The notes beneath the pieces were generated by a model. That model made no database searches. It was not told where the DNA came from and saw nothing but the letters and a program-made list of their open reading frames with translations. Of a DNA stretch of 64,000 nt, positions 1 to 6,948 are shown piece by piece (the stretch's first letter is position 1; the number at the start of each line of letters is the position of its first letter). Both the position numbers and the translations under genes were made by a program. The DNA comes from an uncultured Pseudobdellovibrionaceae bacterium (GTDB lineage: Bacteria > Bdellovibrionota > FAC87 > UBA2466): the NCBI GenBank assembly GCA_964653655.1, contig CAZZHG010000009.1:11301-75300 (forward strand), written 5' to 3'.

Positions 1-1
1 C

Positions 2-352
2 GTGCGCACTCTCTATTTCGATCCGAAGATGCGGTGGTGGCGGGCGAAGCCCCGTTACGAAACTCATATGCCGAGCCTCGTTCACTTGACGCAGGACTGG
101 CACTATCCCGTGCTTCGCAACATTTCCGAAGGCGGCTGTTTCGTCGAGACGGCCCATCTTCTCGACGTGAACTCCAAATGCAGCGTCGCCATTCCGCTTC
201 CGGTGCCTCTCAACGTCTCCGTGATACAGGCGGAAGGGGAGGTTCGCTGGGTTTCCACCAATCCGCTCCGCCACGGTATGGGGATTCAATTCAACAACCC
301 GAGCCCCGCCATCGCCAAAGCCCTTCGGGGTTTTGTCGCCCACCAGCTTTAG
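2..352 (+). CDS. PilZ domain protein; the ORF opens with GTG at position 2 and may be 5'-truncated by the window edge
   Basis: C-terminal part resembles PilZ c-di-GMP binding domains (hydrophobic beta strands, GMGIQF motif). The ORF starts at the window boundary. Confidence 0.4.
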   Translation: MRTLYFDPKMRWWRAKPRYETHMPSLVHLTQDWHYPVLRNISEGGCFVETAHLLDVNSKCSVAIPLPVPLNVSVIQAEGEVRWVSTNPLRHGMGIQFNNPSPAIAKALRGFVAHQL

Positions 353-359
353 TCCGCGT

Positions 360-692
360 CTACATGTGCGCTGACGCTTGTTCTTGTGCTTCGGCGTGTT
401 CGTGCGCGTAGACGTGAACGTGCACCTATACGCAAGTTGGGGTGGCAAGAAAGCGATCGCTGGAAAGGGTAGTGCCGCTAGGTTCGGGCGTGGGTGGGGT
501 TCGTAGGCATACGAAACCCATCCGCGACTAACTCTAATTTGTGGCGGTACCCGCGCGAAGCTTCTAGGGAATGGTTCTCCGTATAAGTTCACGTTCACGT
601 CTATGGATAGGCTAAAGCCGACGTCTACCTCAACGTGAGCGTCTAACCATAAGTGGAAGCCAAACGTCTTCGTAAACCTGGCCCCCAAGGGG
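360..692 (+). promoter_or_regulatory. Long (~330 nt) leader upstream of kamD with a distal 14-bp inverted repeat (TAGACGTGAACGTG at 409-422; reverse complement at 590-603) and a local hairpin (GGGTTCGTA..TACGAAACCC around 505-535). Candidate structured 5' UTR / cis-regulatory RNA
   Basis: Seen directly in the sequence. No ORF of 60 aa or more lies in this gap. High GC with repeated CGTG/ACGTGAACGTG motifs. Confidence 0.25.
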
Positions 693-2318
693 TTGAAAAC
701 CGAGCGAAGTTCCCGGATACTGCCCCGCAGAATGTCGTTTTCAAATGAGCTCCCGCTACCGGCGAAGCAAATCGCCCGGTGTCGGCAAATTGCGTCCTCC
801 ATCGGCGATACGGTGGTGAAGCTCGTCCAGGCCAATTCGACGGTCGGGATCGAGCGCGCGGCCTTGCGCCTTCTCGGTTTCGACGGCGCCCTCGCTCACG
901 AAGGGCTTCTCTTTCCGGCCAGCAACTTCATCGTCGACCAGCTGAAACGCGCCGACCGGCTTCACGAGGGAGCCATCTACGCCATTGCGAACGCGCTCGT
1001 CGCCAGCGGGGAAACCGTCGAAGGGCTCCAAAAGAGAGTCCTCGAGGATAAGTTCGACGTTGGCGCGGTCGGTTCCCAGGACGCGAAGAAAGTGAAGAAG
1101 AAGCTCGATCTTCTCACCCGCGGCGCCTTCGAGAACCTGAAGCGCTATCGGACCGGCCGCCAGAAACTGCGGATGAAGCAGGGTGATCCAAAAAAATCGG
1201 GACGTCCCCTGAAATACGTCATCGTCGCGACGGGAAACATTTTCGAGGACGTGACTCAGGCGAAGAGCGCGGCGCTGGACGGAGCGGACATCATCGCCGT
1301 CATCCGCAGCACCGCCCAGTCGCTGCTCGATTACGTGCCCCAGGGCACGACGACCGAAGGATTCGGGGGCACCTACGCGACCCAAGCCAACTTCCGCGTG
1401 ATGCGCCAGGCGCTCGACGAACTGGGCGCCCAGATGGGCAAGTACATCCGGCTCACCAACTACTGTTCGGGTCTCTGCATGTCGGAGATCGCCGCGCTCG
1501 CTTCCCTGGAAGGCCTCGACTGCCTTCTGAACGACGCCATGTACGGAATTCTCTTCCGCGACATCAACATGAAGCGGACTCTCGTCGATCAGCACTTTTC
1601 CCGCGTCATCTGCGGTTTCTCCGACATTTGGATCATGACGGGCGAAGACAACTACATGAAGACCACCGACGCCGTGGAAAGCGGCGACCAGGTGCTCGCC
1701 TCCGAGTTCATCAACGAGCGCTGCGCGCTGAACGCCGGCATGAAGCTCGACCAGATGTCCATCGGCCATGCGATGGAGATGAATCCGGATTACGAGAACG
1801 TGATCCTCATGGAAATCGCGCGCGCCCAGATGACCCGCCAGATTTTTCCGAAGAGCCCCCTCAAGTACATGTGCAACACCAAGTTCAAGACGGGCGACAT
1901 CTTCACGGGCCACGCGCTCGATACCATCTTCAATTTCATCGGCTCCTTCACCGACCAGGGAACGATTCTCCTTGGCATGCCGACGGAAGCGATTCACACC
2001 CCGTGGCTTCACGATCGCACCGTCGCCATCCGCAGCGCGAATTACGTCCTTAACGGCACGCGCTCGATGACGGGCGAGTTCGGGTACCGCTCGGACGGGT
2101 TCATCTCCAAGTTCGCGAAAAAAGTGCTCGGCGACTGCGTGGACCTACTCGAAAAAATCGACGACCAGGGGTTCCTGGACGCCATCGAGAAGAGGACGTT
2201 CGCGGGAGTGAGCCGCACGGAAAAGGGCGGCAAAGGTTTTGACGGCGTCTTCGCGATCGAAAAAGGGCGCTACCAGAATCCGTTCTATAAACTGATGGGG
2301 AGCAAGATTTCGGTATAA
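693..2318 (+). CDS. kamD: Lysine 5,6-aminomutase alpha subunit (KamD-like). The true start could be the downstream Met at 732
   Basis: 541 aa. Conserved KamD blocks: YVIVATGNIFED, AVIRSTAQSLLDYVP, TTEGFGGTYATQANFR, NYCSGLCMSEIA, LNDAMYGILFRDINM. Immediately followed by the B12-binding beta subunit. Confidence 0.8.
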   Translation: MKTERSSRILPRRMSFSNELPLPAKQIARCRQIASSIGDTVVKLVQANSTVGIERAALRLLGFDGALAHEGLLFPASNFIVDQLKRADRLHEGAIYAIANALVASGETVEGLQKRVLEDKFDVGAVGSQDAKKVKKKLDLLTRGAFENLKRYRTGRQKLRMKQGDPKKSGRPLKYVIVATGNIFEDVTQAKSAALDGADIIAVIRSTAQSLLDYVPQGTTTEGFGGTYATQANFRVMRQALDELGAQMGKYIRLTNYCSGLCMSEIAALASLEGLDCLLNDAMYGILFRDINMKRTLVDQHFSRVICGFSDIWIMTGEDNYMKTTDAVESGDQVLASEFINERCALNAGMKLDQMSIGHAMEMNPDYENVILMEIARAQMTRQIFPKSPLKYMCNTKFKTGDIFTGHALDTIFNFIGSFTDQGTILLGMPTEAIHTPWLHDRTVAIRSANYVLNGTRSMTGEFGYRSDGFISKFAKKVLGDCVDLLEKIDDQGFLDAIEKRTFAGVSRTEKGGKGFDGVFAIEKGRYQNPFYKLMGSKISV

Positions 2319-2320
2319 CC

Positions 2321-3079
2321 ATGGCGGAGATCGACCTCAAAAATCTGCTGCCGTACGGCGATACGACTCAGGACGGAGCCGTGCAGCTCTCCTTCACGCT
2401 TCCCGTGGAGCCGAGCCAGAAGGCCAAAGAGGCGGCGACCCAGCTCGTGAAGCTGTGGGGGTTCCACGACATCAAGGTCGCCCACATGTCGAAAGCCGGG
2501 GTAGGGTACTCGTTCTTCGTCTGCTTCGGCCGCATCGATAAAGGCATCGACATCACGAGCCTTCACGTGCCGGAAGTCAGCATCAGCACCCGCACCTACA
2601 AGGAAATCGACAAGCTGATCAAGGAAAAGGTCGGGCGCAAGATTGTCGTCGTCGGGGCCTGCACCGGGTACGACGCCCATACCGTCGGGCTCGACGCCAT
2701 CTTGAACATGAAGGGCTTCGACGGAGACATCGGCCTCGAGCGGTACCAGGGTTTCCGCTGTGTTAATATGGGAAGCCAGATACCGACCGATGAGCTCATC
2801 GATCGGGCGGTCAAGGAGAAGGCGGACGCGATTCTTCTCTCCAAGATCGTGACCCAGAAAGACATTCACATTCACGATATGCGGGAACTGATGACGAGGC
2901 TGAAAAAGCGGGGACTCGAGAACAAGTTCATCCTCGTCGTGGGCGGCCCGCGCGTGACCCACAAACTCGCCCTCGAGCTCGGCTTCGACGCCGGATTTTC
3001 CATCGGCACCAAACCCAGCGACGTCTCCAATTATCTTTTAGAAAAGATGATCGAGCGTAAGGACAAGGGCGAGTCATGA
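2321..3079 (+). CDS. kamE: Lysine 5,6-aminomutase beta subunit (KamE-like), B12-binding Rossmann domain
   Basis: 252 aa. Starts 3 nt after the kamD stop. B12-binding domain features (VVVGACTGYDAHTVGLDAI, glycine-rich segments). Size matches KamE (~260 aa). Confidence 0.8.
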   Translation: MAEIDLKNLLPYGDTTQDGAVQLSFTLPVEPSQKAKEAATQLVKLWGFHDIKVAHMSKAGVGYSFFVCFGRIDKGIDITSLHVPEVSISTRTYKEIDKLIKEKVGRKIVVVGACTGYDAHTVGLDAILNMKGFDGDIGLERYQGFRCVNMGSQIPTDELIDRAVKEKADAILLSKIVTQKDIHIHDMRELMTRLKKRGLENKFILVVGGPRVTHKLALELGFDAGFSIGTKPSDVSNYLLEKMIERKDKGES

Positions 3080-3912
3080 GCCCAAAAGAAAAAAGTCTCG
3101 TGGTCGGCCGCGGCACGGAGTCGGAACAGATCGCCTACGCTCTCGATCTCCAGAGAAACGTCCTCATCGAAGGTCCGGTCGGCGTCGGAAAGACTTTTCT
3201 CGTTCAAGAGATTTTGAAGTCCCGCAAGCAAGGCTACGAGCGTATCGACGGGGATTCCCGTTATACGGAACAGAAGCTCACCGGCTGGTTCGATCCGCCG
3301 CTCGTGCTCAAGAAGGGCTATTCGAAGGACACGTTTCTCGACGGGCCGCTAGTTACCGCCATGCGGGAAGGGAAGATTCTCTTCATCAACGAGCTGAACC
3401 GGATGCCGGAAGCCGTCCAGAATATTTTGCTGCCCGCGATGGACGAACGGCGCGTGACGCTTCCGAAAATCGGCGTCATCACGGCGAAAAAAGGTTTCTC
3501 CGTAGTCGCCACCCAGAATCCGCGGGAGTTCACGGCGACTCATTCGCTTTCGGAAGCGCTGCTCGATCGCTTCGAGATGATCCGTCTCGACTACCAAACG
3601 GAAGCCGAGGAGCGCGAGATTCTGGAAGAGCAGGCGGGAGACGTCGACAAAGCTTCTCTCGGCAGAGCGCTTTACCTGGTTCGCGCGACCCGAAGCCACC
3701 CGGCCATCAAGCGGGGGGCCAGCATCCGGGCGGCGCTCGCCGTGTGTCAGCTCGTTGGAGCGGGAGTGGAGTTCCGCGCGGCGGTTTTCATGGCGCTTCC
3801 GGGGCGCATCGAGATGGTCGCCTCCGATCAGGACGCGCGCCAGATCCTCGCCGAGATCCTCGATAAGGGCGCGCCTTCCTCCTCGGCTGAAAAAAAAACT
3901 CAAAAAGCCTGA
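3076..3912 (+). CDS. MoxR-family AAA+ ATPase (short CbbQ/NorQ-sized form)
   Basis: Walker A GPVGVGKT, Walker B FINELNRMP, sensor region ATQNP. 278 aa. The ATG overlaps the kamE stop (ATGA at 3076-3079), indicating translational coupling. Confidence 0.75.
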   Translation: MSPKEKSLVVGRGTESEQIAYALDLQRNVLIEGPVGVGKTFLVQEILKSRKQGYERIDGDSRYTEQKLTGWFDPPLVLKKGYSKDTFLDGPLVTAMREGKILFINELNRMPEAVQNILLPAMDERRVTLPKIGVITAKKGFSVVATQNPREFTATHSLSEALLDRFEMIRLDYQTEAEEREILEEQAGDVDKASLGRALYLVRATRSHPAIKRGASIRAALAVCQLVGAGVEFRAAVFMALPGRIEMVASDQDARQILAEILDKGAPSSSAEKKTQKA

Positions 3913-4022
3913 CCGATAGGCTCTTTCCCTCCAAATTAGGCGCCGTTTTCCTTCCTCCGGAACTTTCGCAGGCTATCGACGAGGACGCGGGGGAATCCGC
4001 TCTGGGCGGCAAGACCGATCTG

Positions 4023-4787
4023 ATGCGGGAGATGTATTTCCGCCGGGTTCAGGGGGCCGAGCGAAGCGAGGACGAGGATAAGCTTCTCGTGCGCCTCATT
4101 CTCGAGCACGCGCGCCAAATCGTCGCTCATCCGGCGAAACCGCTCGAGCGCAGGCTGGAAGAGTGGGCGCGGGCTCCTTTCGCGGAGCTCGCCCTCGACG
4201 AAACTCTCGAGGAAGATCCGATGCTGGTCGACGAGAAGAGCATATTCGTCGAAGAGCAGCGCGAAAAACGATTCACGTGCGCCGCCATGCTCGACGTCAG
4301 CTCCTCGATGTCGGGCGACAAGCACTTGCTCGCGAGCATCGCGGTCGCGGTGATGCTTCTCGAAGTTCCATCGGCTAGCAACGCGCTTTCCGTTTTCGCC
4401 TCCGACGCGAAAACCGTGAAGGGTTTGGAGACTAGAGAGCCGCCGGAAGCGACCGTGCTGAAGTTCTTGAGGGTGCGTCCGAAAGGCTTTACGAACATTC
4501 ACGCCGGGCTCGAGGAAGGGCTCGCCCAGTACCGCCGCGCCGGAGTCACTCGCCGAAAGGTCGGCCTTCTTGCGAGCGACGGCCGCTCGACCGAAGGTCC
4601 GGAGGCCGTGGACATCGCCAAGCTCTACGACTTTCTCGTCGTTTTGCACCTGCACGGACCAGGGAGTTTACTGGAAAGCAGCGAAGCCATTGCCCAAGCT
4701 GGCAACGGGATATGCCTGGAAGTCCGGGCCTTTGAAGAGCTTCCTCGCCGTCTTTACGATGCTCTGCGCCTCATAGCCCGCCGGTAA
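4023..4787 (+). CDS. von Willebrand factor A (VWA) domain protein, the typical partner of a MoxR ATPase
   Basis: MIDAS-like motif DVSSSMSGDK...ASD(GRST). 254 aa. Lies 110 nt downstream of the MoxR gene on the same strand. Confidence 0.6.
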   Translation: MREMYFRRVQGAERSEDEDKLLVRLILEHARQIVAHPAKPLERRLEEWARAPFAELALDETLEEDPMLVDEKSIFVEEQREKRFTCAAMLDVSSSMSGDKHLLASIAVAVMLLEVPSASNALSVFASDAKTVKGLETREPPEATVLKFLRVRPKGFTNIHAGLEEGLAQYRRAGVTRRKVGLLASDGRSTEGPEAVDIAKLYDFLVVLHLHGPGSLLESSEAIAQAGNGICLEVRAFEELPRRLYDALRLIARR

Positions 4788-4873
4788 GCCTACTTGTGTT
4801 GACGTGCTGCGGCAATTTCGGCATAAACCGCCCGGGCCGATTATTAACCCATTGGCTTAAAGAGGTATCTCTC

Positions 4874-5854
4874 ATGCGCTCCCTTCTCCTTGGTCTTCTC
4901 GCCTTCGCGGGCGTTGCCCGCGCCGGCACCTTGGTTCTCCCGGTCAACGTTCAGACGGACCTGCCCTCCTGTGAAGGCACCGTCGAAACGAACCGCAACG
5001 GAAACCAGATCAACATCGTTTTCCGCAAAGTGAAGTTCTGCTCGAACTTCGACATCGTCTCCACGGGCTTCGGGATTCTCGATGCTGGTTACAAGGCGAA
5101 AAAGATTCCGGAAACGTCGACCGGCCTTCGCGGCGGCAGCTTCACGATTCCCCAGGCCTACATCGACCGCGGCCTGAACATCATCACGGTGGAAGTCCGC
5201 TCGAATAAGGGCGCCCACAGCGACACGATCAAGCTCGTGTTTGCGACGAATCCGGTCCAGCCGATCGTCCCGGTGATTCCGCAGCCGGTTCACGGAACGC
5301 TGCGCGGTTTCTGTGCGGACCACGACTATTCTAATTTCAAGGCCGCCAAGGCGTTTGCTTATTCGGGCTCCGGTCTCGGCAAGTTCGACTCGGAAGCCAC
5401 GGCTTGGGCGAGCGAGTACAATCGCACGCACCGTTGCAACACGATCGGCGAGTACAAGGCTCGGTTCACGGCGCTCTTCGACTACGGCTACAACGGCAGC
5501 TACCTCGGCAAGTTCACGTCGGAAGCCCGCACCTTCGCTCTCGGCTACGTCGAGACGACCGAAGTTCCGACGGTGGAGGCCTGGAAGGCTCTTTTCAGCG
5601 TGGTGCAGCCGTTCTTCTACGACGGCAAGTACCTCGGGCTTTTCACTTCGTCCGCGAGACAGCGGACGGACGAATGGGTTCGCCGCGGCACTTGCGGCAA
5701 CGCCCGGCTAATCGCCGCGATCAAGTCCGAGTTCACCCGGCATTTCAATTTCGCTTCCAGCAGCGCCGGTTTGAACCAGTTCACGACGCAAGCCCGCGCT
5801 TATGCGGCCGCGAAAGTCCGTAACATGACGAGCTGTTCGGACCTCATTCACTAA
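4874..5854 (+). CDS. Secreted protein of unknown function with four ~40-aa internal repeats (Y.GS.LGKF.SEA...)
   Basis: Signal peptide MRSLLLGLLAFAGVARA after RBS AAGAGGT. Repeats: YSGSGLGKFDSEATAWASEY / YNGSYLGKFTSEARTFALGY / YDGKYLGLFTSSARQRTDEW / SSSAGLNQFTTQARAYAAAK. Confidence 0.55.
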   Translation: MRSLLLGLLAFAGVARAGTLVLPVNVQTDLPSCEGTVETNRNGNQINIVFRKVKFCSNFDIVSTGFGILDAGYKAKKIPETSTGLRGGSFTIPQAYIDRGLNIITVEVRSNKGAHSDTIKLVFATNPVQPIVPVIPQPVHGTLRGFCADHDYSNFKAAKAFAYSGSGLGKFDSEATAWASEYNRTHRCNTIGEYKARFTALFDYGYNGSYLGKFTSEARTFALGYVETTEVPTVEAWKALFSVVQPFFYDGKYLGLFTSSARQRTDEWVRRGTCGNARLIAAIKSEFTRHFNFASSSAGLNQFTTQARAYAAAKVRNMTSCSDLIH

Positions 5855-5866
5855 GTTCGCAATCAG

Positions 5867-5905
5867 AAAGGCCCGGTTTCCTAAGCGAAGCCGGGCCTTT
5901 TTTTT
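5867..5905 (+). terminator. Rho-independent terminator: 10-bp GC stem (AAAGGCCCGG / CCGGGCCTTT) followed by a T8 run
   Basis: aaaggcccggtttcctaagcgaagccgggccttttttttc, located directly after the stop at 5854. Confidence 0.75.
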
Positions 5906-6072
5906 CGATAAGTGATAACAAATTTATACTAATTCATTTTCATCAAATTACGTAATATATTAATATTATTAGAATTAATTATAATATGTGATAACAAATT
6001 AGCATCTTTATTGGTTGGTGTCCGTGCTTGGACCCCGTTAAACTGAAAGCAGATGGAAACAGGGAGGCCAAT
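5906..6072. promoter_or_regulatory. AT-rich (about 25% GC) intergenic island holding two identical 13-bp direct repeats GTGATAACAAATT (5912-5924 and 5988-6000). Probable promoter/operator for the downstream lipoprotein/TIGR02147 cassette
   Basis: The base composition departs sharply from the rest of the window. The two exact 13-mers sit 76 bp apart. RBS GGGAGG lies at 6061-6066, before the ATG at 6073. Confidence 0.4.
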
Positions 6073-6948
6073 ATGAAAACGAATCTCAATGGGTTAGTGA
6101 ATCTCTTGATCCTTGGTCTGCTGGTGGTCGGGTTGTTCTTTGGCTGCGGCAAGAAGTCGGCGCTGGAGCCGGGAATGACCGGCCTGACTTTTCAGGGAAC
6201 CAAGCCCGGAGCCTTTGCCGCCGTGGCATCGGCCTTTGGTGTCGTATCCGCAGCCAACACCATCTCCGTGCGCGATCGCAACGGCAGCGAAGCCGGGGTT
6301 CTGACTCTCACCGAGGCGCGGGTCGCCCTTAAGGAGATAAAGTTCAAGAAATCCGGAGAAGACGCAGGCGAGGCCAAGTACCAAGGGCCTTACATTGTCG
6401 ATTTGTTGAGCGGCGTGGTCACTCCGGAGTTGCCGGCTATCCGGCTCGGCGCGGGCGACTACGAGCGCATCGAGCTTAAGCTGGCGAAGCTGGAAGACGG
6501 ACAAGTGGCGGACGGCGATGTCATGGCTCACAAGAGCATTTACCTCGCGGGAACCTATACGGGTAACACCTCGGCCGGCGCCGTCACCGATGCTCCGTTT
6601 ACGCTCACGTTCGAGCTGGATGACGAGTTCTTTTTGAGCGGCGACGAGGCTCTCGTCATTTCCGATGTCGAGCCGAATCCGATCATCGTCGCCTTCCGGC
6701 TCAATCGTTGGGTGGCGTTCGACGACTCCGAGATCAACGACAAGAATGTGGACTTCTCTCAGGTGGCGGTTTCGGGCGGAGAGATTTCCCTTTCCGATCA
6801 GTCTGGCGCCACGGACCAAAAGATCTGGGAAGTCATCCGTAAGGGCATCAAGGAATCGGCGGATTTCGGCAAGGATGACGACGACAATGGCGTACTGGAA
6901 TGCGCCGAGGACGAAGATGACGATTCGAAAGACAGCCGAGATTACTGA
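6073..6948 (+). CDS. Lipoprotein of unknown function with an acidic C-terminal tail (paralog A)
   Basis: Lipobox LFFGCG. Paralogous to the 7793-8659 product (LTEARVALKEIKFKKSGE vs LTDARLALKEIKFKRSGE). Asp/Glu-rich C terminus. Confidence 0.6.
   Translation: MKTNLNGLVNLLILGLLVVGLFFGCGKKSALEPGMTGLTFQGTKPGAFAAVASAFGVVSAANTISVRDRNGSEAGVLTLTEARVALKEIKFKKSGEDAGEAKYQGPYIVDLLSGVVTPELPAIRLGAGDYERIELKLAKLEDGQVADGDVMAHKSIYLAGTYTGNTSAGAVTDAPFTLTFELDDEFFLSGDEALVISDVEPNPIIVAFRLNRWVAFDDSEINDKNVDFSQVAVSGGEISLSDQSGATDQKIWEVIRKGIKESADFGKDDDDNGVLECAEDEDDDSKDSRDY

What the first reader, a model, noticed from the sequence alone, without database searches (positions are those of the whole stretch)
693..4787. kamD-kamE is translationally coupled to a MoxR AAA+ ATPase and followed by a VWA protein: candidate new reactivase for a B12 aminomutase
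Lysine 5,6-aminomutase is known to undergo suicide inactivation and to need an ATP-dependent reactivating component. The classically associated reactivases are ASKHA/MutL-like, not MoxR. Here the MoxR ATG overlaps the kamE stop (ATGA), and a MIDAS-containing VWA protein follows 110 nt downstream. MoxR/VWA pairs are established activases or remodelers of metalloenzymes (CbbQ/CbbO for Rubisco, NorQ/NorD, CoxD/CoxE). This module would therefore be an undescribed type of B12-enzyme chaperone or reactivase.
Basis: partly seen in the sequence, partly recalled or inferred. Interest (0 to 1): 0.7.

Follow-up and report, generated by a model that had tools for sequence, protein, structure and literature searches.

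The report
Frameshifted MoxR–VWA chaperone beside lysine aminomutase
In one bacterial phylum the vitamin-B12-dependent enzyme lysine 5,6-aminomutase has, next to it, an unrelated ATPase and adhesion-domain pair instead of its usual repair proteins, and that pair looks like a single gene split by a conserved run of nine or ten A's that ribosomes or RNA polymerase must slip on.

Summary
kamD (732-2318), kamE (2321-3079), a MoxR-type AAA+ ATPase (3076-3912, ATGA overlap with kamE) and a MIDAS-bearing VWA protein are all present.

Two corrections:
- The canonical KamDE reactivase is KamB/KamC (MutS-like ATPase), not an ASKHA/MutL protein.
- The VWA gene does not start 110 nt downstream. Its frame is the -1 frame of moxR and opens at an A9 run (3890-3898) 14 nt before the moxR stop. 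Its conserved N-terminal motif has no canonical start codon upstream.

Comparative results:
- In 38 non-identical related loci the same A8-A10 run, phase and -1 relation recur.
- Relatives away from kamDE are mostly single fused MoxR-VWA ORFs.
- Among 80 KamD loci from GTDB species genomes, MoxR-VWA follows kamDE only in Bdellovibrionota, which show no kamB/kamC in the sequence examined. All other phyla show no MoxR-VWA.
- In one clade the pair sits between kamE and kce.
- Fused relatives lie beside corrinoid methyltransferase and cobalamin genes.

Best reading: a MoxR-VWA remodelling chaperone replaces KamBC and is made as short and long forms by -1 recoding, as in chlD. The function is untested. 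Novelty: new variant of known kinds.

The parts
732..2318 (+). [quoted passage not shown]
   Evidence: Pfam Lys-AminoMut_A, 1.6e-205. NCBIfam equivalog NF052384, 690 bits against a cut-off of 600. Homologues are 526 aa.
2321..3079 (+). [quoted passage not shown]
   Evidence: NCBIfam NF052385, 338 bits against a cut-off of 280. Pfam OAM_dimer plus B12-binding. Matches solved KamE chains 9q1a, 8t0v and 1xrs at E = 6e-73, with DAHTVG and NMKG conserved.
3076..3912 (+). moxR-like AAA+ ATPase, zero-frame product of 278 aa. The start ATG overlaps the kamE stop (ATGA).
   Evidence: Pfam AAA_5 5.5e-25 and AAA_3 5e-18. A profile of the family hits Midasin AAA domains, MoxR 2R44, NorQ, CbbQ and CobS in the PDB. 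Walker A GPVGVGKT lies at 3172-3195. Walker B reads FINE (Asn-Glu) at 3382-3393 and is invariant in 87 relatives.
3890..3898 (+). A9 run. It contains the in-phase slippery heptamer A_AAA_AAA (3891-3897) and is the proposed -1 recoding site.
   Evidence: - It is the only homopolymer of 9 or more bases in the window.
- An A8-A10 run in the same phase occurs in all 38 non-identical split loci.
- The first two Lys codons of the run are AAA in 76 of 76 cases, against an AAA fraction of 0.59 elsewhere in the same ORFs.
- The preceding codon varies (GAA, CTA, GTA, TCA, TTA, AAA) but always ends in A.
3891..4787 (+). VWA/MIDAS module in the -1 frame of moxR. It is open from the A-run, and its first canonical start is ATG 4023. 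The proposed long product joins 3076-3897 to 3897-4787, about 570 aa.
   Evidence: - Frame analysis.
- The conserved F-[FL]-PPEL motif lies upstream of ATG 4023.
- Fused single-ORF homologues of 588-649 aa (median about 600) carry AAA_5 plus VWA.
- The junction is colinear with those fused proteins.
- The VWA fold is confirmed by AF2 (pLDDT 89) and Foldseek hits to MDN1-MIDAS and NorD.
4293..4307 (+). MIDAS motif D-V-S-S-S. Further MIDAS residues: T at 4491-4493 and D at 4578-4580.
   Evidence: D127, S129, S131, T193 and D222 are invariant in 13 homologues that span split and fused groups, and in the 45-sequence alignment.

Best explanation
The region is a four-cistron unit, kamD-kamE-moxR/vwa.

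KamDE is an ordinary adenosylcobalamin- and PLP-dependent lysine 5,6-aminomutase. This is shown by family scores and conserved catalytic motifs.

The MoxR ATPase and the VWA/MIDAS module are parts of one recoded gene.
- Ribosomes that read moxR normally stop at 3912 and make a 278-aa ATPase.
- A fraction shift into the -1 frame at the A9 run (3890-3898). The route is either tandem tRNA-Lys slippage on A_AAA_AAA or an extra A added by RNA polymerase.
- The shifted product is a MoxR-linker-VWA protein of about 570 aa.
- This step is strongly inferred from conservation, not observed.

By analogy with NorQ/NorD, CbbQ/CbbO and ChlI/ChlD, mixed hexamers would carry one or a few VWA arms.
- The MIDAS site would dock on KamDE.
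- ATP hydrolysis would pry the B12-binding subunit open, so that damaged cobalamin leaves and fresh adenosylcobalamin is loaded.
- This would take over the job done by KamB/KamC in fermenters.
- This step is inferred from gene-neighbourhood complementarity and family precedent.
For: Linkage
- kamD-kamE-moxR-vwa occurs in the window and in about 35 further loci. They fall into three deep clades, with MoxR about 50-65% and VWA 28-60% identical to the window proteins.
- The flanking genes differ between clades.
- The kamE and moxR reading frames overlap or lie within 25 nt in almost all loci. In 14 of 33 the overlap is RTGA.

Displacement
- Of the 80 KamD loci from GTDB species genomes, 7 are Bdellovibrionota-type.
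- Six of these carry MoxR downstream. One of the six is cut before the VWA gene.
- The seventh contig ends about 260 nt after the kamE match, where a weak, partial MoxR-like hit begins.
- None of the seven has kamB or kamC in its flanks.
- The other 73 loci (Bacteroidales, Clostridia, Thermotogota, Fusobacteria, Asgard archaea and others) have no MoxR or VWA. About 55 of them show kamB and/or kamC, most in the order kdd-kamA-kamB-kamC-kamD-kamE.
- NCBIfam names KamB and KamC as the reactivase.

Pathway embedding
- Several clade-B loci (L007, L009, L152) read amino-acid dehydrogenase - kdd - kamD - kamE - moxR - vwa, with kce downstream.
- kce follows vwa directly in L007 and L009. Kce scores 397 bits against a cut-off of 382.

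B12 theme in relatives
- Fused MoxR-VWA relatives lie beside MttB, a corrinoid protein and MtrH in about 13 loci.
- One lies beside cobQ plus RACo plus MttB.

Recoding
- The VWA is in the -1 frame in all 38 non-identical split loci, and every split locus has an in-phase A8-A10 run.
- The run is under nucleotide-level selection.
- The -1 frame opens within 2 nt of the run in 12 of the 38 loci.
- The conserved motif lies upstream of any canonical start in about half of the loci.
- Third-codon-position variability exceeds that of positions 1 and 2 in that frame: 0.69 against 0.53 and 0.46.
- About 120 database homologues are all called as separate ORFs with scattered N-termini, and none is fused.
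- About 45 non-Kam relatives are single fused ORFs without an A-run.
- The -1 frame of L109 aligns residue for residue with the zero frame of L121.

Precedent
- chlD genes use an A_AAA_AAR -1 shift between an AAA+ module and a VWA module, measured at up to 63% in E. coli reporters (PMC3711429, PMC5009743, PMC9227772).
- The NorQD structures show a VWA finger inside the AAA+ pore (PMC13036017).
Against: - There is no transcript, protein or activity data.
- Absence of kamBC was tested only in the 64-kb window and in 5-10-kb flanks.
- All taxonomically labelled MoxR-linked loci belong to one phylum, so shared ancestry inflates the counts.
- One fused subgroup (about 20 loci) sits next to a sensor histidine kinase and archaeal-type genes, with no B12 link. 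L138 is split but has no kamDE within 5 kb. The family is therefore not exclusively B12-associated.
- No conserved downstream RNA structure stimulates the shift (mean z = -0.15), so the efficiency is unknown.
- Some loci (for example L001 and L086) have a GTG soon after the run that could start an independent VWA protein.
- The Walker B aspartate is replaced by asparagine throughout the family, so the ATPase mechanism may be atypical.
Confidence: 0.6

Rival explanations
1. MoxR and VWA are two separately translated proteins, as in NorQ/NorD. The VWA would start at a non-canonical codon, such as CTG 3909 overlapping the moxR TGA, or by termination-reinitiation. The A-run would then simply encode a conserved Lys-rich tail.
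For: - Classical MoxR/VWA pairs are separate genes.
- In the window CTG 3909 overlaps the moxR stop (CTGA).
- L001 and L086 have a GTG 21 nt after the run.
- Gene callers annotate two ORFs in every case.
Against: - The codon before the run changes its amino acid (Glu, Leu, Val, Ser, Lys) but always ends in A, and the Lys codons are AAA in 76 of 76 cases. Selection is therefore on nucleotides, not residues.
- The zero-frame tail after the run is short and unconserved.
- The frame relation is -1 in 38 of 38 loci.
- The nearest relatives are fused ORFs that are colinear through the junction.
- The moxR stop lies 4-148 nt from the run, so no fixed reinitiation geometry is conserved.
Confidence: 0.15
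2. The MoxR-VWA unit is a general remodelling or stress chaperone, or serves another client. Its position next to kamDE would be inherited synteny within Bdellovibrionota with no functional tie to the aminomutase.
For: - All taxonomically labelled linked loci are in one phylum.
- A large fused subgroup sits next to a histidine kinase, GNATs, arginine decarboxylase and deoxyhypusine synthase, with no B12 gene.
- L138 lacks kamDE.
Against: - The linkage survives divergence to about 50% MoxR and 28% VWA identity while the flanks change completely.
- moxR overlaps or lies close to kamE in almost all loci.
- In several clade-B loci the pair lies inside the kdd-kamDE-kce operon.
- The distribution is strictly complementary to kamBC within the sequence examined.
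- Corrinoid and cobalamin contexts arise independently in fused relatives.
Confidence: 0.15
3. The pair acts in cofactor supply or assembly rather than reactivation. It might act as a CobS/CobT- or ChlI/ChlD-like chelatase motor, or as a loader that delivers cobalamin to apo-KamE and to corrinoid proteins.
For: - CobS is among the PDB hits.
- The fused proteins give weak hits to the putative cobaltochelatase and BchD-ChlD models.
- JGI labels the VWA proteins 'Mg-chelatase subunit ChlD'.
- L115 places the gene beside cobQ.
- The same recoding trick is used by chlD (PMC9227772).
Against: - Scores are far below the family cut-offs: TIGR02031 24-40 bits against 499, TIGR02442 25-56 bits against 779.
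- The best NCBIfam match is GvpN-like.
- No ORF the size of a CobN/ChlH large subunit (about 1,200-1,400 aa, my own knowledge) exists in the window. The longest ORF is 799 aa.
- No such gene turned up among the ORFs scanned in the related loci.
Confidence: 0.1

Closest known systems
KamB/KamC, the lysine 5,6-aminomutase reactivase (NCBIfam NF052386 / NF052383)
   Same: It occupies the equivalent operon slot directly next to kamDE. It includes an ATPase. Its distribution is mutually exclusive with the MoxR-VWA unit across 80 genome loci.
   Different: - The folds are unrelated. KamC is a MutS domain V ABC-type ATPase, and KamB has no solved relative.
- kamBC lie upstream of kamD, whereas moxR-vwa lie downstream of kamE.
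- kamBC show no recoding.
NorQ/NorD, CbbQ/CbbO and CoxD/CoxE: MoxR AAA+ ATPases with VWA partners
   Same: - An AAA_5/MoxR-type hexameric ATPase works with a MIDAS-bearing VWA partner encoded next to a cofactor-dependent client enzyme.
- The profile hits NorQ and CbbQ, and the model hits the NorD VWA domain.
- The published mechanism is a VWA finger in the pore and MIDAS docking on the client (PMC13036017, PMC9976466, PMC4660213).
   Different: - The client would be a B12/PLP radical enzyme rather than NOR, Rubisco or CODH.
- Walker B is Asn-Glu.
- The VWA module is short (about 290 aa), whereas NorD is 69 kDa according to PMC13036017.
- The VWA module is joined to the ATPase by a frameshift instead of being a separate gene.
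chlD / 'magnesium chelatase' genes with a programmed -1 frameshift (Antonov et al. 2013; Kuznetsov et al. 2022)
   Same: - An A_AAA_AAR shift site lies between an AAA+ module and a VWA module.
- They are annotated as two adjacent genes.
- Fused homologues exist.
- One gene gives a short ATPase and a long ATPase-VWA subunit (PMC3711429, PMC5009743, PMC9227772).
   Different: - The AAA+ clade differs. The chlD genes belong to the ChlI/BchD family, and this gene fails those models.
- No CobN/ChlH partner is present.
- The context is a B12-dependent enzyme, not B12 or chlorophyll synthesis.
Reactivases and chaperones of other B12 enzymes: DdrAB/GdrAB, EutA, GlmL(MutL), MeaB and RACo (their roles stated from my own knowledge)
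   Same: The proposed role is the same: ATP-driven release of damaged cobalamin, or maintenance of the corrinoid, for an adjacent enzyme. A RACo gene sits next to a fused relative in L115.
   Different: Those proteins are ASKHA-fold or G3E GTPase proteins. None is a MoxR/VWA pair.
Midasin (Rea1/Mdn1)
   Same: It gives the best PDB sequence match for the ATPase (1.5e-56, summed over three AAA domains) and the best structural match for the VWA domain. Its AAA ring and MIDAS domain lie in one polypeptide.
   Different: It is a eukaryotic ribosome-assembly factor of about 4,700-4,900 residues that carries several tandem AAA domains (three matched stretches). There is no relation to B12 enzymes.

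Membership tests
Lysine 5,6-aminomutase KamD/KamE | Scores above the curated equivalog cut-offs for both subunits | tested here: met
   KamD 690 bits against 600. KamE 338 bits against 280.
Lysine 5,6-aminomutase KamD/KamE | Base-off/His-on B12 motif DxHxxG, and the PLP-binding lysine in the beta subunit | tested here: met
   DAHTVG and NMKG align with solved KamE chains 9q1a, 8t0v and 1xrs. The residue roles come from my own knowledge of 1XRS.
Lysine 5,6-aminomutase KamD/KamE | Association with other lysine-fermentation genes (kamA, kdd, kce) | tested here: inconclusive
   None occurs in the 64-kb window or in the clade-A flanks. Clade-B relatives have kdd, and several have kce adjacent, but no kamA.
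MoxR-class AAA+ ATPase | AAA_5/AAA_3 domain with Walker A, sensor and arginine residues, and similarity to MoxR, NorQ and CbbQ | tested here: met
   AAA_5 5.5e-25 and AAA_3 5e-18. PDB profile hits 2R44, NorQ and CbbQ. GPVGVGKT, ATQNP, LDRF and GASIRA are invariant.
MoxR-class AAA+ ATPase | Canonical Walker B hhhhDE | tested here: not met
   The motif reads FINE (Asn-Glu) in all 87 relatives. The catalytic Glu is kept. The consequence is unknown.
VWA domain with MIDAS | VWA fold and the DxSxS...T...D motif | tested here: met
   The MIDAS residues are invariant. AF2 pLDDT is 89, with Foldseek hits to MDN1-MIDAS, NorD and BatB. A profile of the family hits VWA structures. The window protein alone is below the Pfam cut-off (19.9 bits against 26.4).
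KamB/KamC reactivase | Sequence membership in NF052386 or NF052383 | tested here: not met
   No NCBIfam hit to either model for the MoxR or VWA proteins. No tblastn hit to KamB or KamC in the window or in any MoxR-linked locus.
KamB/KamC reactivase | ATP-dependent reactivation of inactivated KamDE | not testable with these tools
   This needs enzymology.
ChlD/BchD or CobS/CobT chelatase subunits | Scores above the TIGR02031 or TIGR02442 cut-offs, and a CobN/ChlH large subunit | tested here: not met
   24-56 bits against cut-offs of 499 and 779. No ORF longer than 799 aa occurs in the window.
Programmed -1 frameshift / transcriptional slippage gene | In-phase slippery heptamer or an A/T run of 9 or more at the ORF overlap | tested here: met
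   A_AAA_AAA in the window. A_AAA_AAG or A_AAA_AAA in 38 of 38 non-identical loci.
Programmed -1 frameshift / transcriptional slippage gene | The downstream ORF lacks its own conserved start, is conserved as protein, and relatives are fused in frame | tested here: met
Programmed -1 frameshift / transcriptional slippage gene | Conserved stimulatory element (downstream hairpin or pseudoknot) | tested here: not met
   MFE z-scores of the 50 nt downstream average -0.15. Such an element is not required for transcriptional slippage. An upstream Shine-Dalgarno-like element was not tested.
Programmed -1 frameshift / transcriptional slippage gene | Detection of the trans-frame product | not testable with these tools
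   This needs proteomics, a reporter assay or RNA-seq.

The most novel reading that the evidence does not exclude
A previously unrecognised class of corrinoid-enzyme maintenance chaperone.
- It would be a MoxR-VWA machine whose subunit ratio is set by a conserved -1 slip on lysine codons.
- It would reactivate lysine 5,6-aminomutase in Bdellovibrionota in place of KamBC.
- Its fused relatives would service corrinoid methyltransferase systems.
- Because the slip site consists of Lys codons inside a lysine-catabolic operon, the shift efficiency might also respond to lysyl-tRNA supply. That would tie chaperone composition to substrate availability. This last point is pure speculation.
Probability: 0.4. 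Interest if true: 0.85.

Novelty: new variant of a known kind. Interest (0 to 1): 0.72.

Why it matters
**A new kind of B12 helper.** The known helpers of B12-dependent radical enzymes are, to my knowledge, ASKHA-type reactivases, G3E GTPases and, for KamDE, KamBC. A MoxR/VWA machine doing this job would add a mechanistically different class, based on ring ATPase pulling and MIDAS docking. It would also extend the MoxR/VWA paradigm from metal-centre insertion to an organometallic cofactor.

**Clean comparative signal.** The clear non-orthologous displacement gives a testable pairing of client and chaperone.

**A second case of recoding between these modules.** The recoding site is a second, independent case of a frameshift placed exactly between an AAA+ module and a VWA module; chlD is the first. 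This suggests a general way of fixing the ratio of bare to arm-bearing subunits in a hexamer.

**Annotation.** Annotation pipelines currently truncate the VWA protein at arbitrary start codons in well over a hundred database entries.

Tried and rejected
- **Riboswitch upstream of kamD.** An Rfam scan of 1-6200 at E <= 1 found nothing relevant.
- **Downstream frameshift-stimulating hairpin.** The window has a possible stem at 3902-3926. Across 38 loci the folding energies are no better than shuffles, so I dropped it.
- **Chelatase membership.** Rejected on family scores and on the lack of a large subunit.
- **Assembly or homopolymer error as the cause of the split.** Rejected for three reasons. 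All split loci, from many independent projects, show the same -1 relation. About 120 database homologues include no fused ORF. The run length differs between lineages (9 or 10) while the frame relation stays the same.
- **Literature searches.** Searches for aminomutase+MoxR, kamD/kamE, KamB/KamC and MoxR+frameshifting found no description of this module. One search was wasted on word-start matching.
- **Source organism.** I could not identify it. The exact-protein look-up gave no names and no contig on record.
- **Other lysine-pathway or B12 genes in the window.** A Pfam survey of 30 further window ORFs found none.

Full report
**1. What is in the window**

Four co-directional ORFs fill 693-4787.
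- **KamD** (ATG 732 or TTG 693 to 2318) and **KamE** (2321-3079) pass the NCBIfam equivalog cut-offs for the two subunits of lysine 5,6-aminomutase: 690 bits against 600, and 338 against 280.
- KamE aligns over its full length with solved KamE chains. It keeps the DAHTVG cobalamin motif and the NMKG lysine.
- **The third ORF** (3076-3912) is an AAA_5/AAA_3 ATPase. Its ATG overlaps the kamE TGA as ATGA.
- A profile of this ATPase and its relatives finds Midasin AAA domains, the MoxR protein 2R44, NorQ, CbbQ and CobS in the PDB.
- **The fourth ORF** ends at 4787 and carries a complete MIDAS motif (DVSSS...T...D).
- It is a VWA domain by three tests: profile search, a confident AF2 model (pLDDT 89), and Foldseek, where the MDN1 MIDAS domain and the NorD VWA domain rank near the top.

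**2. The VWA gene is not an ordinary downstream gene**

- The first ATG/GTG/TTG of the VWA frame is at 4023, but the frame is open from 3891.
- The translated stretch before 4023 is homologous to the N-termini of relatives, including an invariant F-[FL]-PPEL motif.
- The frame opens at an A9 run (3890-3898), the only homopolymer of 9 or more bases in the 64 kb. The run lies 14 nt before the moxR stop.
- The VWA frame is the -1 frame of moxR.
- In the moxR frame the run reads GAA AAA AAA ACT, which contains the in-phase slippery heptamer A_AAA_AAA.

**3. The arrangement is conserved**

I collected relatives in three ways: exact-protein look-ups, a KamD-centred scan of GTDB species genomes, and a MoxR-centred scan of metagenomes.
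- In every kamE-linked locus that holds both genes, the VWA lies in the -1 frame.
- In each, an A9 or A10 run sits 4-43 nt before the moxR stop, always phased as xxA AAA AAA followed by AAG or Axx.
- Counting a few split loci on short contigs or without kamDE, there are 38 non-identical split loci. One of these has an A8 run, and in one the stop lies 148 nt from the run.

Selection acts on the nucleotides rather than on the peptide.
- The first two Lys codons of the run are AAA in 76 of 76 cases.
- Lys codons elsewhere in the same ORFs are AAA only 59% of the time.
- The invariant Walker A lysine uses AAA 22 times and AAG 16 times.
- The codon before the run encodes Glu, Leu, Val, Ser or Lys but always ends in A.
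- After the run, the zero-frame tail is short and unconserved, whereas the -1 frame carries the conserved motif.
- In that -1 frame, third codon positions vary most: 0.69 against 0.53 and 0.46.

Start codons are not conserved.
- In about half of the clade-A loci the motif lies upstream of any canonical start.
- About 120 database homologues are called with N-termini scattered over nearly 100 residues.
- Only 24 of them include the motif, and none is fused.

**4. Relatives are single fused proteins**

- About 45 MoxR-VWA relatives found away from kamDE are single ORFs of 588-649 aa (median about 600), with AAA_5 at the N-terminus and VWA at the C-terminus. They have no A-run.
- The hypothetical trans-frame products of the split genes align colinearly with them through the junction.
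- In one closely related pair, the -1 frame of L109 matches the zero frame of L121 residue for residue.
- Fused homologues, a slippery site at the join, a constant -1 relation and no conserved start together form the signature used to define programmed frameshift genes.
- The published chlD / 'magnesium chelatase' case is a direct precedent. It has an A_AAA_AAR site between an AAA+ module and a VWA module, shifts at up to 63% in E. coli reporters, and has fused homologues (PMC3711429, PMC5009743, PMC9227772).
- The present ATPase is not a ChlI/ChlD family member, so this is an independent occurrence.
- I found no conserved downstream RNA structure. The shift could therefore be unstimulated ribosomal slippage or transcriptional slippage on the A9-A10 tract (background: PMC1088944). 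The data cannot separate these two.

**5. Is it tied to KamDE?**

In the 80 KamD loci from GTDB species genomes:
- Seven are labelled Bdellovibrionota, Bdellovibrio, Bacteriovoracaceae, Oligoflexia or 'Deltaproteobacteria'.
- Six of these have MoxR downstream, and five of the six also show the VWA gene. L011 ends before it.
- L008 ends about 260 nt after the kamE match, where a weak MoxR-like hit begins.
- None of the 73 loci from other phyla has MoxR or VWA within 10 kb.
- Most of those other loci read kdd-kamA-kamB-kamC-kamD-kamE.
- NCBIfam names KamB and KamC the lysine 5,6-aminomutase reactivase subunit and reactivase ATPase. KamC is a MutS-like ABC ATPase.
- No MoxR-linked locus, and not the 64-kb window, contains kamB or kamC.

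Further points:
- The linked loci fall into three deep clades on a MoxR tree.
- Clade A, which holds the window, has the four genes alone between unrelated flanks.
- Several clade-B loci read amino-acid dehydrogenase - kdd - kamD - kamE - moxR - vwa, with kce downstream. kce follows vwa directly in L007 and L009. There the pair sits inside the lysine-degradation operon.
- kamE and moxR overlap or lie within 25 nt in almost all loci.

This is the pattern expected for non-orthologous displacement of KamBC by MoxR-VWA.

**6. A wider B12 theme**

- One subclade of the fused relatives lies next to MttB-family methyltransferases, a B12-binding corrinoid protein and an MtrH-type methyltransferase. 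This holds in about 13 loci.
- In L115 the fused gene sits between cobQ and the corrinoid activator RACo.
- Another subclade (about 20 loci) follows a sensor histidine kinase and shows no B12 link. L138 is split but has no kamDE. The family is therefore not exclusively corrinoid-associated.

**7. Mechanism proposed**

- Shown: the gene content, the motifs, and the conservation of the slip site and of the linkage.
- Inferred: two products, a 278-aa ATPase and an ATPase-linker-VWA protein of about 570 aa, co-assemble into hexamers that carry one or a few VWA arms.
- The first 27 or so residues after the junction are predicted to be disordered, as expected for a linker.
- By analogy with NorQD, where a VWA finger enters the AAA+ pore and the MIDAS site is thought to bind the client (PMC13036017), the arm would dock on KamDE.
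- ATP-driven movement would then open the B12-binding subunit, so that inactive cobalamin is exchanged.
- The universal Asn-Glu Walker B is unexplained.

**8. Limits**

- There is no expression or activity data.
- The taxonomic breadth is one phylum.
- Absence of kamBC was checked only locally.
- Clade A shows no other lysine-pathway gene nearby, so the physiological substrate there is open.

**9. Verdict**

- I found no description of either feature in the searchable literature.

Noticed in passing
window 3382-3393; all 87 MoxR domains of alignment /scratch moxr_dom: The Walker B motif reads hhhh-Asn-Glu (FINELNR or FMNEMNR) instead of the usual Asp-Glu. This holds in every member of the family, split or fused. 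The effect on Mg binding or ATPase rate is unknown.
   Followed up: partly
window 5868-6010: - A terminator-like hairpin (ggcccggtttcctaagcgaagccgggcc followed by a T-run) is followed by a stretch of about 110 bp that looks to be roughly 85% A+T, in a 59% GC genome.
- That stretch contains two direct copies of GTGATAACAAATT (5913-5925 and 5988-6000).
- It could be a regulatory region or an integration scar.
   Followed up: no
window 4874-5854 (+): An ORF with a signal-peptide-like N-terminus (MRSLLLGLLAFAGVARA) and four or five internal repeats of the type G.(Y)LGKFTSEAR...(Y/W). It has no Pfam or NCBIfam match and is not conserved downstream of the module in the relatives examined.
   Followed up: no
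L026, L059, L067, L078 (Promethearchaeota and 'uncultured archaeon' MAG contigs): These Asgard-archaeal kamDE loci have kdd, kamA and kamB but no detectable kamC within 10 kb (tblastn at 1e-6). Two Promethearchaeum loci (L049, L061) have both. This may be a third reactivase arrangement.
   Followed up: no
L121:1247-1255 compared with L109, L138 and L150: Within one small clade without kamDE evidence, three members are split at an A8-A9 run with the VWA in the -1 frame. One member (L121) has an A9 run but is in frame. This is either an evolutionary switch between the fused and recoded states or a homopolymer miscall.
   Followed up: partly
L108:3615-4649 and neighbours; L115:1456-4229: Fused MoxR-VWA genes also sit next to a 2,4-diaminopentanoate dehydrogenase-like gene (ornithine fermentation, downstream of the B12-dependent ornithine aminomutase step) and next to cobQ plus a class I/II aminotransferase. 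These are further hints of a cobalamin theme.
   Followed up: partly
window 2-352 (+), and upstream of kamD in L001 and L003: A PilZ/TIGR02266-type domain gene lies directly upstream of kamD in the window and in two clade-A relatives. Response-regulator and cNMP-binding genes lie further upstream in those relatives. This could hint at cyclic-di-GMP-linked regulation of the module.
   Followed up: no
database proteins P0272-P0393: Gene callers truncate the VWA protein at arbitrary internal start codons (206-299 aa). JGI often labels it 'Mg-chelatase subunit ChlD'. Both are annotation artefacts of the unrecognised recoding site.
   Followed up: yes
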